A stretch of 18,772 nucleotides of DNA. It comes from a virus (Duplodnaviria > Heunggongvirae > Uroviricota > Caudoviricetes). The position numbers and the translations under genes were made by a program. Below are positions 9,104-10,688 of the stretch, one piece after another. The stretch's first letter is position 1. Every line of letters starts with the position of its first letter. The stretch lies in the IMG/VR virus record IMGVR_UViG_2718218139_000014. One strand, given 5' to 3'. Under the pieces are notes generated by a model. The model saw only the letters and a program-made list of their open reading frames with translations, ran no database searches and was not told the origin of the DNA.

Positions 9104-9373
9104 TTACTTCATCCCGCCAATATTTTCCCACGTCCCGTCAGCACGCAGGATTTGCAGCGGTCTTACCACGCACTGTATCTGCTTTTTATCCGCATCCAGT
9201 ATCACCACCTGCGTGATTACCCTGTCCTGCTCCGGGATAATGCCATTCTCATCTGACTCCAGGATGTCTGCCGGCCCCAGTCGCAGCTGTGCTGTAAGTA
9301 ACTCCCCGTTTTCACGGTCATCATGCTTTCCGCAACCGCACAGACGCTGCATAAGTTTTTTTAGTATATTCAT
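9104..9373 (-). CDS. Small protein (89 aa) paralogous to the Stf C-terminal domain; occupies the position where a tail-fibre assembly gene (tfa) is expected
   Basis: ATG at 9373 lies 1 nt after the Stf stop, with AGGAGA RBS inside the Stf 3' end; translation MNILKK...LRLGPADILESDENGIIPEQDRVITQVVILDADKK...RADGTWENI aligns with the Stf C-terminus [37 protein letters not shown]...FGDGPWQDV. The longer 133-aa ORF-track frame overlaps Stf and is not favoured. Confidence 0.5.
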   Translation of the reverse strand: MNILKKLMQRLCGCGKHDDRENGELLTAQLRLGPADILESDENGIIPEQDRVITQVVILDADKKQIQCVVRPLQILRADGTWENIGGMK

Positions 9374-9374
9374 G

Positions 9375-10688
9375 TCATTCTCCTGTTCTGCCTGTATCAC
9401 TGCCCACTTCATCCAGCCCCTTGACATCCTGCCACGGCCCGTCGCCAAATCTGACCTGCAAATGCTGAAAAAAACCCTGAACCCGTGTGGCATCTTTGGG
9501 GTCAAGAAAGGTCAGTCCGGTGATGAGTGCGCCATCTGTATCCGGGAACCAGCCATTGCTGTTTGTCTCAATAATGCTCGCCGGCCCCAGACGAAAACGG
9601 ATTTGTGTCTCCCCCGGGTCGCCCTTCGGTCCCTGAGGTCCGGTTGCCCCCACCGGGCCAGCCGCACCTGTTTCTCCTTTCGGTCCCTGTGGGCCTGCCG
9701 GGCCTGCCGCACCGGTATCTCCCTTTGGACCCTGTGGACCTGCATCTCCCGTCAGACCGGTCTCTCCCCGCTCTCCCCTGTCGCCTTTCGGCCCCTGCGG
9801 GCCTGCCGGACCAGTATCTCCTCTCGGCCCCCTTTCACCGGTTGCCCCTGCCGGGCCGGTGTCGCCACGCTCTCCTTTATCTCCCTTCGGCCCCTGAGGA
9901 CCCGCGGGACCCGGTTCCCCCTTTGGCCCGGGAGGCCCCACCACGGTGGGGATTCGGTTTACGGCCTCTTCCGCCGCTATCCTGCTTTGTTCCGCTGACT
10001 GTGCGCTTTCTGCTGACTCCCGGGCTTTTTCTGTTGCGGTCGTTGCATCCCTGGCTGCATTACCGGCTGCACTTTCTGCCGTCTTTCTTGACAATTCAGC
10101 TTCTGCTGCACTTTGTGATGACTCACTGGCTTTTTGAGCGGCCGCAGAGGCCGAGGACGAGGACGCTTCCTCTGACTGCTTTGCAGCGGCTGCACTTTCT
10201 GCCGCCTGCCGGGCTGACTCCGATGCCTCCCCTGCTGAAGTGTCAGCATTTGCAGCGCCCTCTTCTGCCTGACTGGCTGATATGCCGGCATTCCTCGCTG
10301 ACGTCTCCGCCTCTCCGGCATTCTTCTTCGCCTCCTCTGCGTGACGCGCCACCTCTTCCACCATCAGTTCAAAACGGCGCAGTGCCTCCGGCCGGACGTC
10401 ATCCTCCGACATGGCACCGAGAAAATCATTCAGCGTCCCCGGTTGAGAATCTTCATACACGGTGATGGTCCCGGCATGTGACGGCGGGAAGCCCTCCACC
10501 AACAGAATGACGCTGTACTGACCGTACTCAACGTCCATGCTGTAACGACCGGCTTCATCCGGATTTTCAGAGGCCACCGTATTCACCACCACCGTGCTGC
10601 TGGTCCGTCTGGCTTTCAGTTGAATGGTGCAGTTCTCTACCGGTTTTCCTGTGCCGTCTTTCAGTACACCTGAAATCTTTACTGCCAT
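9375..10688 (-). CDS. stf: Side tail fibre protein (Stf-like): lambda-Stf N-terminal domain, Ala/Ser/Glu-rich linker, collagen-like Gly-X-Y repeats, short C-terminal domain; 437 aa
   Basis: N-terminus [17 protein letters not shown]...[16 protein letters not shown] matches lambda Stf from memory; preferred start is the ATG at 10688 (the ORF-track start at 10694 is a GTG); about 110 residues of [19 protein letters not shown]... collagen triple-helix-type repeats. Confidence 0.85.
9609..9938 (-). repeat. Collagen-like Gly-X-Y triplet-repeat coding region within stf (about 36 triplets)
   Basis: Translation [28 protein letters not shown]... through ...[11 protein letters not shown]; GC-rich nucleotide repeats generate the spurious antisense ORFs in the ORF track. 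Confidence 0.85.

What the first reader, a model, noticed from the sequence alone, without database searches (positions are those of the whole stretch)
9104..9608. Stand-alone paralogue of the Stf C-terminal domain in place of a tail-fibre assembly gene
The 89-aa ORF starting 1 nt after the stf stop (with an RBS inside the stf 3' end) aligns with the last roughly 70 residues of Stf itself (shared RLGPA-I-E---NG--P--D...LD...DG-W pattern). A translationally coupled free copy of the fibre-tip domain is not the usual stf-tfa arrangement. It could be an alternative or co-assembling tip subunit, a chaperone derived from the tip domain, or a relic of tip-domain cassette exchange.
Basis: seen in the sequence. 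Interest (0 to 1): 0.65.

Follow-up and report, generated by a model that had tools for sequence, protein, structure and literature searches.

The report
Free-standing tail-fibre tip domain gene
Directly after the side tail-fibre gene of this E. coli prophage lies a small conserved gene for a stand-alone copy of the fibre's own tip domain; it is already catalogued in hundreds of Shiga-toxin and lambda-like phages, its function is untested, and it most likely helps assemble or temporarily caps the fibre tip.

Summary
On the minus strand an 89-aa ORF (9104-9373) starts 1 nt after the stf stop, behind a GGAG Shine-Dalgarno. Its residues 29-88 align with Stf residues 366-427 (37% identity, E=8e-12), and both match Pfam PF06820 (Phage_fiber_C) over the full model.

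It is not new as an object. The identical protein is in RefSeq as "phage tail fiber C-terminal domain-containing protein". It forms PHROG 576, occurs in 701 of 5426 complete E. coli genomes and in 296 phage records (933W, VT2-Sakai, 434, 2B8). GenBank records already call it "alternate tail fiber tip" or "tail fiber assembly chaperone".

What I add:
- The tip domain, small ORF and terminator travel together behind at least four different fibre bodies, in two virion types and in Salmonella.
- The small copy is under purifying selection and is more conserved than the tip (63-65% vs 35-38% between E. coli and Salmonella).
- The "+1 frameshift fusion" idea is not supported by the Salmonella relatives.
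- Published phi24B virion proteomics shows only trace peptides, and the fibre trimerises without it.

Best reading (about 0.4): a tip-derived, trans-acting assembly factor or transient cap. No experiment has tested its function.

The parts
9375..10688 (-). stf: side tail-fibre gene of the EPclA (EHEC prophage collagen-like protein A) type. 437 aa from the PGAP ATG; the ORF listing extends it to a GTG at 10694 (439 aa). Domains: phage_tail_N, Ala/Ser coiled coil, collagen repeats, Phage_fiber_C (PfC).
   Evidence: ORF. Pfam PF08400, PF01391 and PF06820. PGAP annotation WP_000268987.1. The N-terminal domain matches solved tail-fibre chain 9e7m_Ta (E=2e-51). The EPclA architecture is described in PMC3368898.
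9411..9602 (-). PfC tip domain of Stf (residues 365-428 in the 439-aa numbering). This is the segment paralogous to the small ORF.
   Evidence: Pfam PF06820, 125 bits, residues 365-428. BLASTP alignment. Recombinant PfC was shown to be a trimerisation module in PMC3368898.
9380..9383 (-). Shine-Dalgarno GGAG for the small ORF, inside the last codons of stf, 6 nt before the ATG.
   Evidence: Sequence. The junction GGAGAATGAcATG is identical in 81 of 87 junction sequences examined: 86 related loci plus the window itself. Salmonella homologues have AGGAGG before their ATG.
9104..9373 (-). Small ORF, 89 aa plus stop: a free-standing PfC-domain protein (RefSeq WP_001023420.1, PHROG 576). It corresponds to 933W L0122, VT2-Sakai orf59, phi24B 'gp59' and phage 434 gp24.
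   Evidence: the 933W L0122 label is. Third-position excess among variable sites in residues 28-89.
9293..9373 (-). N-terminal extension of the small protein (residues 1-27): a basic amphipathic helix MNILKKLMQRL followed by a variable, charged linker. There is no signal peptide.
   Evidence: AF2 predicts a helix at residues 3-12 and low confidence at 13-23. The motif M-x-I-[LF]-K-K-[LI]-x-x-x-L-x-G is kept in most Salmonella homologues. The highest 7-residue hydropathy is 0.5-0.7. Variable sites fall 10/6/7 on codon positions 1/2/3, consistent with relaxed constraint.
9107..9292 (-). PfC domain of the small protein (residues 28-89).
   Evidence: Pfam PF06820, residues 28-89, 123 bits. In the AF2 model the blocks covering residues 31-80 have mean pLDDT 77-90, with five beta strands.
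9061..9091 (-). Intrinsic-terminator-like hairpin (CCGGAG...CUCCGG flanked by an A run and a U run), 13 nt after the small ORF stop. It closes the stf + small-ORF unit.
   Evidence: RNA fold -29.1 kcal/mol, z=-4.4 against shuffles. This stretch travels with the small ORF in 297 phage records, podoviruses included.
10705..10726 (-). Terminator-like hairpin between lom and stf, at the upstream border of the two-gene unit.
9270..9280 (-). CTGGGGCCGGC (codons for LGPA) in the small ORF. This 11-nt direct repeat is also present in stf at 9580-9590, in the same codon phase.
   Evidence: A deletion between the two copies would give an in-frame fibre carrying the small-ORF type tip. Chimeric database proteins P0121 and P0064 show that exchange between the two copies can occur.
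9580..9590 (-). Second copy of the 11-nt in-phase repeat, inside the stf PfC domain.

Best explanation
**Proposal.** stf and the small ORF form a self-contained two-gene late cassette. The small ORF encodes an old duplicate of the fibre's trimerising tip domain (PfC = Phage_fiber_C, PF06820), preceded by a short basic helix. It is translated from its own Shine-Dalgarno and ATG, tightly coupled to termination of stf, so it is made beside each finished fibre chain. I propose that it folds like PfC, probably as a trimer, and docks on the fibre's PfC domain. There it would act as a trans-acting assembly factor or transient cap: it would help the three tip domains register (which nucleates the shaft), or shield the tip until the fibre is mounted. 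It would then mostly leave, so that only traces remain in virions. Functionally it would occupy the niche of Tfa without being a Tfa homologue.

**Shown here or in the literature:** the paralogy, the coupling geometry, conservation and purifying selection, cassette co-inheritance, expression during phage production, and sub-stoichiometric presence in virions.

**Inferred:** trimer formation by the small protein, binding to the fibre tip, and the chaperone or cap activity.
For: 2. **Position and coupling.** In E. coli the junction is TGA-C-ATG with GGAG upstream, identical in 81 of 87 junction sequences. In Salmonella the ATG lies inside stf, 14 or 23 nt before its stop, behind AGGAGG. Terminator-like hairpins flank the pair.
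3. **Cassette behaviour.** The phage collection holds 296 records with a Stf-type PfC and 296 with the small ORF. Their organism breakdowns are almost identical, and the two features are adjacent in the rows listed in both searches. The pair sits behind four different fibre bodies: collagen EPclA fibres (EHEC prophage collagen-like protein A) of siphoviruses such as 434 and 2B8; EPclB fibres of podoviruses such as 933W, VT2-Sakai and phi24B; a collagen-free Gifsy-like Salmonella Stf; and an unrelated 212-aa Salmonella fibre. This is how fibre tips and their cognate chaperones travel.
4. **Selection.** Variable sites in residues 28-89 fall 5/6/21 on codon positions 1/2/3 (p=2e-4). Between E. 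coli and Salmonella the small protein is 63-65% identical while the tip domains are 35-38% identical, so the duplication is old and both copies were kept.
5. **Expressed but not stoichiometric in virions.** The phi24B proteome supplement lists ADGTWENIGGMK and VITQVVILDADKK at 3 PSM each. The fibre has 2267 PSM in total, and its own C-terminal peptides have 38 and 47 PSM.
6. **Precedent.** The Alteromonas A5 fibre is functional without its chaperone, which was proposed to act as a transient cap (PMC10579305).
Against: - Recombinant EPclA, Col-PfC and PfC form trimers in BL21(DE3) or JM109(DE3) without the small protein, and Col-PfC refolds quickly after melting (PMC3368898). It is therefore not required for trimerisation in vitro.
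- The small protein is more conserved than the tip. That is not what one expects of a partner that reads the variable tip surface; it suggests contact with the conserved core or with some other conserved partner.
- It has no similarity to any known chaperone family.
- The trace peptides in virions could equally be contamination. Lom, which the authors treat as a contaminant, has 23 PSM.
Confidence: 0.4

Rival explanations
1. Structural tip subunit or adhesin. The small protein stays bound to the distal end of the Stf trimer, as gp38 does on T2-type long fibres, and is the real or an additional receptor-binding unit.
For: It has the same fold class as the tip, with tail-fibre-like structural matches. 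Peptides were detected in purified phi24B virions. Its high conservation could reflect a conserved receptor. One GenBank record names it 'alternate tail fiber tip'.
Against: It gives only 6 PSM against 2267 for the fibre. Per peptide that is 3 PSM against 38-47 for the fibre's own C-terminal peptides, far below 1:1. The phi24B text does not list it among the proteins it discusses (no mention of gp59). Receptor-binding parts are usually the fastest-evolving component, but here the fused tip diverges faster, not the small protein.
Confidence: 0.15
2. Alternate fibre C-terminus by programmed +1 frameshifting. Ribosomes would shift near the end of stf and produce a fraction of fibres that carry the small-ORF domain.
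For: In E. coli the small-ORF frame is open for 46 codons upstream of the ATG, and it is the +1 frame relative to stf in every lineage. The low peptide level in virions would fit a low-efficiency fusion. A natural frameshift mutant, P0218, encodes such a fusion.
Against: In the Salmonella homologues the frame is closed 1-5 codons upstream of the ATG, while the ATG and a strong Shine-Dalgarno are conserved. In the 47 overlapping stf codons, variable sites follow the stf frame (5/9/13); the would-be third position of the +1 frame is the least variable. An open run of 46 codons has roughly a 10% chance expectation. The last sense codon plus stop (GAA-UGA-C) gives poor re-pairing for a prfB-like shift, and the GGAG sits too close to it (sequence; inference). 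No junction peptide appears in the held part of the phi24B supplement, although that file was truncated when stored.
Confidence: 0.05
3. Non-assembly role as a free tip mimic. It could be a decoy or regulator that occupies whatever the tip binds (receptor fragments in lysis debris, other fibres, the capsid surface), or that limits fibre-fibre clumping. This is functionally analogous to T5 Llp or to anti-aggregation factors.
For: [quoted passage not shown] In phi24B the fibre tips point toward the capsid and may contact it, and 933W virions are reported to clump by their tails (PMC3368898). The protein is not a stoichiometric virion component.
Against: It has no signal peptide or conserved lipobox. 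The N-terminal hydropathy is at most 0.7, and the second Cys is lost in Salmonella P0177 and in some E. coli variants. It therefore cannot reach outer-membrane receptors before lysis. At 28-37% identity to the tip it is unlikely to share the tip's ligand specificity.
Confidence: 0.15
4. Non-functional relic of a past tip-cassette exchange.
For: An 11-nt in-phase repeat and chimeric database proteins (P0121, P0064) show that the two copies can recombine. In Citrobacter rodentium and some Salmonella remnants both genes are decaying.
Against: The PfC part is under purifying selection. The length, start codon and Shine-Dalgarno are conserved from E. coli to Salmonella at 63-65% protein identity. 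The gene is present in plaque-forming or inducible phages (434, 2B8, 933W, phi24B) and co-occurs with the tip in what appear to be the same 296 phage records. The protein is detected by MS.
Confidence: 0.03

Closest known systems
Pfam PF06820 Phage_fiber_C / PHROG 576 / PGAP 'phage tail fiber C-terminal domain-containing protein' (933W L0122, VT2-Sakai orf59, phage 434 gp24, AU6Stx1 atfT)
   Same: This is the same gene family. The window's protein is identical to RefSeq WP_001023420.1 and at least 90% identical to the copies in all but one of 296 phage records.
   Different: Nothing differs. This is a typical copy, sitting in a decayed prophage at dusA. The family carries only homology-based names, and I found no experimental function in the searchable literature.
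Tail-fibre assembly proteins: lambda Tfa, Mu gpU, P2 gpG (Pfam Caudo_TAP), acting on the Stf / gpS / gpH tips
   Same: The gene lies immediately downstream of the fibre gene and is co-inherited with the fibre's C-terminal tip as an exchangeable cassette. The PfC model's best solved-structure match is the Mu fibre that was crystallised with its chaperone.
   Different: There is no sequence similarity to Tfa families. The protein is a paralogue of the tip itself, about half the size of lambda Tfa. The fibre trimerises without it (PMC3368898).
Alteromonas phage A5/V22 fibre chaperones proposed as 'transient chaperone caps' (PMC10579305)
   Same: In both cases a small protein is encoded after the fibre gene, the fibre-plus-chaperone module is shared between morphologically different phages, and the A5 fibre is functional without co-expression. 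These points parallel.
   Different: Those chaperones resemble intramolecular chaperone domains, not the fibre's own knob. No homology to PfC was detected.
C-terminal intramolecular chaperone domains (endosialidase and T5 pb1 type, Peptidase_S74)
   Same: Both are trimerising C-terminal modules that nucleate folding of the upstream fibre. That activity was shown for PfC fused to collagen (PMC3368898).
   Different: PfC is not cleaved off: the fibre's C-terminal peptides are abundant in virions. There is no S74 match. The element in question is a separate polypeptide.
T2/T6-type gp38 adhesin on the tip of gp37
   Same: In both cases a small protein is encoded right after the long fibre gene and could sit on its distal end.
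   Different: gp38 is a stoichiometric receptor-binding subunit unrelated to gp37. Here the protein is a paralogue of the tip and appears only at trace level in virions.

Membership tests
Pfam PF06820 Phage_fiber_C (stand-alone members = PHROG 576) | Profile match above the curated gathering score (25 bits) over the whole 64-position model | tested here: met
   123.2 bits, E=5e-36, model positions 1-64 of 64, residues 28-89. PHROG 576: 201.8 bits over positions 1-89 of 89.
Pfam PF06820 Phage_fiber_C (stand-alone members = PHROG 576) | Genomic position directly after a tail-fibre gene whose own C-terminus is PF06820 | tested here: met
   Window; 79 of 82 IMG/VR loci with an intact stf 3' end and small ORF; phages 434, VT2-Sakai and AU6Stx1; Salmonella loci.
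Pfam PF06820 Phage_fiber_C (stand-alone members = PHROG 576) | Trimerisation, as shown for the fused PfC domain | not testable with these tools
   Shown only for the Stf PfC domain by SEC-MALLS (PMC3368898).
Tail-fibre assembly proteins (lambda Tfa / Mu gpU; Pfam Caudo_TAP) | Sequence membership (profile match) | tested here: not met
   PF06820 is the only Pfam family at E<=1. No NCBIfam hit. No PDB sequence hit.
Tail-fibre assembly proteins (lambda Tfa / Mu gpU; Pfam Caudo_TAP) | Encoded immediately downstream of the fibre gene and exchanged together with the fibre tip | tested here: met
Tail-fibre assembly proteins (lambda Tfa / Mu gpU; Pfam Caudo_TAP) | Required for folding or trimerisation of the fibre tip | not testable with these tools
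   The literature points the other way for trimerisation: rEPclA and PfC trimerise in BL21(DE3) and JM109(DE3) without it. Functional fibre assembly on virions has not been tested.
Programmed-frameshift alternate C-terminus (GenBank atfT note) | The extended open frame upstream of the ATG, and a shift site, are conserved among homologues | tested here: not met
   46 open codons in E. coli, but only 1 and 5 in Salmonella loci L089 and L094, and 7 in C. rodentium. There is no dual-frame constraint in the overlap.
Programmed-frameshift alternate C-terminus (GenBank atfT note) | The fusion protein or a junction peptide is observed | tested here: inconclusive
   No junction peptides were found in the held part of the phi24B proteome file. 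The file was truncated when stored.
Intramolecular chaperone domain (Peptidase_S74 type) | Autoproteolytic release of the C-terminal domain from the mature fibre | tested here: not met
   The fibre's C-terminal peptides [10 protein letters not shown] (38 PSM) and [11 protein letters not shown] (47 PSM) are present in virions. No S74 Pfam match.
Receptor-blocking lipoproteins (T5 Llp / Cor-like) | Signal peptide with a lipobox | tested here: not met
   The highest 7-residue hydropathy is 0.5-0.7. The 'LCGC' motif is not conserved: P0177 has CLSGG, and E. coli variants replace C14 with H, Y or R.

The most novel reading that the evidence does not exclude
The small protein may represent an undescribed class of fibre accessory protein that arose by duplication of the fibre's own trimerising tip domain: a 'paralogue chaperone or cap'. 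It would recognise the tip by homotypic, domain-to-domain docking, replace Tfa in all PfC-tipped (Phage_fiber_C, PF06820) fibres of Stx and lambdoid phages, and thereby control whether the side fibres are functional.
Probability: 0.35. Interest if true: 0.6.

Novelty: already known. Interest (0 to 1): 0.35.

Why it matters
PfC-tipped (Phage_fiber_C, PF06820) fibres are carried by most Shiga-toxin phages and by the roughly dozen lambdoid prophages of each EHEC genome. What these fibres bind, and how they affect the spread of stx and type III effector genes, is still an open question; it is raised explicitly in the phi24B preprint. The small gene is the only uncharacterised partner of that fibre. 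If it governs fibre assembly or capping, it would be needed to produce functional recombinant fibres and would bear on host-range engineering. It would also show a new way for a fibre chaperone to arise, by duplication of the tip. As a database object, however, it is ordinary and already catalogued.

Tried and rejected
- **Conventional Tfa.** Rejected: there is no profile similarity.
- **tfa remnant downstream.** PGAP annotates a 78-nt 'tail assembly protein' pseudogene right after the small ORF in O157. It overlaps the terminator hairpin. A sensitive DNA search matched 297 phage records, one more than carry the cassette, and no tfa feature appeared among the 40 rows listed. I treat it as a spurious call.
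- **Lipoprotein or secreted decoy.** Rejected by hydropathy and by the non-conserved Cys motif.
- **Frameshift fusion.** Disfavoured.
- **Own promoter or moron-like expression.** No promoter-like site lies on the coding strand inside stf.
- **Structure, first attempt.** The AF2 run with a 7-sequence alignment was uninformative (pLDDT 51). The 17-sequence alignment gave a usable core, but fold matches stay weak.
- **Natural fibres with the small-ORF type tip.** Only P0064 turned up, and it lies at a contig edge and may be an assembly artefact.
- **Genome-contig scan.** It gave only E. albertii and a likely contaminant contig.
- **Literature searches.** Searches for AU6Stx1/atfT, the locus tags, and a phage 2B8 fibre study found no functional work. 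The Gifsy-1 Stf paper does not mention a downstream partner.
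Full report
**Where the window comes from.** The window is 100% identical over the 701-nt query (window 9000-9700) to E. coli CFSAN004176, at a decayed lambdoid prophage inserted at dusA. On the minus strand the order is:
- a truncated J gene;
- lom (10753-11391);
- stf (9375-10688);
- the small ORF (9104-9373);
- a terminator-like hairpin;
- three NleG-family effector genes.

Two IS600 copies cut the integrase gene and J.

- stf ends with TGA at 9377-9375. One base later, ATG at 9373 opens an 89-codon ORF, with GGAG 6 nt upstream inside stf.
- BLASTP aligns residues 29-88 of the small protein with residues 366-427 of Stf: 37% identity, 61% positives, E=8e-12.
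- Both proteins match Pfam PF06820 (Phage_fiber_C, 'PfC' below) over the complete 64-position model, at 123 and 125 bits against a cut-off of 25.
- Stf has the domain order phage_tail_N, coiled coil, collagen, PfC. This is the 'EPclA' architecture (EHEC prophage collagen-like protein A) studied biochemically by Ghosh et al. (PMC3368898).

**The gene is not new as an object.**
- The identical protein is RefSeq WP_001023420.1, named 'phage tail fiber C-terminal domain-containing protein'. It forms PHROG 576, an 89-residue family.
- The 701-nt query spanning the small ORF and the stf 3' end is found in 701 of 5426 complete E. coli genomes, with a median of 12 places per genome.
- In the phage collection the protein occurs in 296 records, at 90% identity or more in all but one.
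- Carriers include 933W (L0122), VT2-Sakai (orf59), phage 434, phage 2B8, cdtI and many Stx1/Stx2 phages.
AU6Stx1 calls it 'atfT, alternate tail fiber tip', with a note predicting a +1 frameshift. The phage 434 record calls it 'tail fiber assembly chaperone'.
- I found no experimental paper on it. The EPclA paper and the phi24B cryo-EM preprint do not discuss it in their text.

**It is a functional gene tied to the PfC tip.**
- In 79 related loci with both reading frames intact, variable sites in the PfC part of the small ORF fall 5/6/21 on codon positions 1/2/3 (p=2e-4 for the third-position excess). The N-terminal 27 codons look relaxed (10/6/7). The Stf PfC domain is intermediate at 13/17/24.
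- The junction GGAGAATGAcATG is identical in 81 of 87 junction sequences.
- The phage collection holds 296 records with a Stf-type PfC and 296 with the small ORF. The organism breakdowns are almost identical, and the two features are adjacent in the rows listed in both searches.
- The roughly 50 nt that follow, including the terminator hairpin, travel with the small ORF.
- The pair sits behind at least four different fibre bodies:
  - collagen EPclA fibres in siphoviruses;
  - two-collagen EPclB fibres in 933W-like podoviruses;
  - a collagen-free Gifsy-like Salmonella Stf of 468 aa with Phage_fiber_2 repeats;
  - an unrelated 212-aa Salmonella fibre.
- The unit of inheritance is therefore 'PfC tip + small ORF + terminator'. 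Fibre tips and their cognate assembly proteins behave in the same way.

**The duplication is old and the two copies evolve differently.**
- Over the shared domain, the small proteins of E. coli and Salmonella are 63-65% identical.
- The fused tips of the same two lineages are only 35-38% identical.
- Small protein against tip is 28-37% in all combinations.
- Both copies were therefore kept since before the lineages split, and the fused tip is the faster-evolving one.
- The family is very narrow. A profile search of 1.84 billion representative proteins returned 85 clusters. The word-indexed searches returned only E. coli, E. albertii, Citrobacter rodentium and Salmonella enterica.

**The frameshift-fusion idea is not supported.**
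- In E. coli the small-ORF frame is open for 46 codons upstream of the ATG. This is probably why some records annotate a 129-aa protein and why the phi24B authors added 'Fusion_6159_FS1/FS2' entries to their MS database.
- In the Salmonella homologues that frame is closed 1 or 5 codons before the ATG, while a strong AGGAGG and the ATG are conserved. There the ATG lies 14 or 23 nt inside stf.
- In the overlap, variable sites follow the stf frame only.
- No junction peptide is present in the held part of the phi24B supplement, which was truncated when stored.
- Independent initiation, coupled to stf termination, is the simplest reading.

**Published experiments limit the possible functions.**
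- Ghosh et al. showed that recombinant EPclA, the Col-PfC fragment and PfC alone are trimers when made in BL21(DE3) or JM109(DE3). They also showed that PfC re-nucleates the collagen helix after melting. The small protein is therefore not needed for trimerisation as such. I did not verify that those strains lack the gene.
- By my reading of the count column in the phi24B virion proteome, two peptides unique to the small protein appear at 3 PSM each (ADGTWENIGGMK and VITQVVILDADKK). The fibre has 2267 PSM in total, and its own C-terminal peptides have 38 and 47 PSM.
- Two conclusions follow. First, the protein is made during phage production, and at most a few percent remains with purified virions. 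Second, the fibre keeps its PfC domain, so PfC is not a cleaved intramolecular chaperone.

**Structure prediction gives weak support for a fibre-tip fold.**
- With a 17-sequence alignment, AF2 gives a mean pLDDT of 74.4. The 10-residue blocks covering residues 31-80 average 77-90.
- The model has an N-terminal helix (residues 3-12), a disordered linker and five beta strands.
  - 5yvq_A, 'Mu phage tail fiber and its chaperone', probability 0.96, E=0.05.
- The best viral-model matches are tail-fibre proteins, with query-normalised TM-score about 0.5 and rmsd 2.2-3.3 Å over about 60 residues.
- These scores are weak, and profile-sequence searches of the PDB find nothing. I take them only as support that PfC is a fibre-tip type domain.
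- There is no signal peptide or conserved lipobox.

**My interpretation.** The data best fit a trans-acting partner of the PfC tip, derived from the tip itself. It would fill the Tfa niche as an assembly helper or transient cap and would mostly be absent from the finished virion (confidence about 0.4). The closest functional precedent I found is the Alteromonas A5/V22 system, where the fibre-plus-chaperone module is shared between unrelated phage morphotypes. The A5 fibre works without co-expression of its chaperone, and a 'transient cap' role was proposed for that chaperone (PMC10579305). The rivals, in order of weight, are:
- a stable tip subunit or adhesin (0.15), which the proteomics disfavours;
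- a free decoy or anti-clumping factor (0.15), which lacks any export signal;
- a frameshift fusion (0.05);
- a relic (0.03).

The remaining probability is for a function I have not thought of.

**Verdict.** The gene, however, is a common, database-named component of EHEC and Stx phages, and the same hypotheses already sit in GenBank notes. What remains open is its function, and that needs experiments. I rate interest at 0.35 and novelty as 'already known'. About a one-in-three chance remains that it defines a new, tip-derived class of fibre chaperone or cap.

Noticed in passing
window 5018-6174 (+) and 12321-13477 (-): Two IS600 copies in inverted orientation bracket the prophage remnant (int fragment, dinI-like gene, three nleG genes, small ORF, stf, lom, J fragment). 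One interrupts the integrase gene and the other truncates J. The ORFs at 6080-6514 and 11420-12415 begin with the same 46 residues, read out of the IS end. The segment looks like a composite-transposon-like block.
   Followed up: partly
window 6985-8997 (-): Three tandem NleG-family (DUF1076, U-box-like) type III effector genes lie directly downstream of the fibre cassette. This is the usual 'exchangeable effector locus' position. In Salmonella and C. rodentium the same cassette is also followed by NleG or SopA/NleL-like genes.
   Followed up: no
L002 4025-4102 (equivalent to window about 9026-9103): In O157:H7, PGAP annotates a 78-nt 'tail assembly protein' pseudogene right after the small ORF. 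It overlaps the terminator hairpin. I found no similarity to tfa in phages that lack the cassette, so it is probably a spurious protein-alignment call.
   Followed up: yes
proteins P0121, P0064, P0218 (E. coli assemblies); L088 4-291: These are chimeras between the two PfC (Phage_fiber_C, PF06820) copies. P0121 joins the small-ORF N-terminus to the Stf-type PfC C-terminal half. P0064 has collagen repeats running straight into the small-ORF type PfC, but it lies at a contig edge. P0218 is a frameshift mutant that fuses Stf to the small ORF through the +1 frame. They may be real recombinants or assembly artefacts.
   Followed up: partly
protein P0140 (565 aa, source not looked up): This collagen-repeat protein carries four tandem copies of a motif like the C-terminal half of PfC (TVVVL.ADE...GIL.VR.ADG.W.EIPA.KG). 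It hints that PfC belongs to a wider set of small beta modules in collagen-like phage fibres.
   Followed up: no
L090-L093 (Citrobacter rodentium), around 4479-5237: This is a decayed version of the cassette. The Stf is internally deleted (161-166 aa, phage_tail_N fused to PfC), and the small ORF has lost its original start by a frameshift. The remnant sits next to an NleG fragment and far from other phage genes.
   Followed up: partly
L086 (725-nt contig in a Xanthomonas pisi DSM 18956 assembly): The contig encodes the small ORF at 94% identity to the E. coli protein. This is almost certainly contamination of that assembly with E. coli or Stx-phage DNA.
   Followed up: no
window 10705-10726 (-): A strong terminator-like hairpin lies between lom and stf, so that stf plus the small ORF are bracketed by terminators on both sides. 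Late transcription presumably reads through both by Q antitermination; this was not tested.
   Followed up: no
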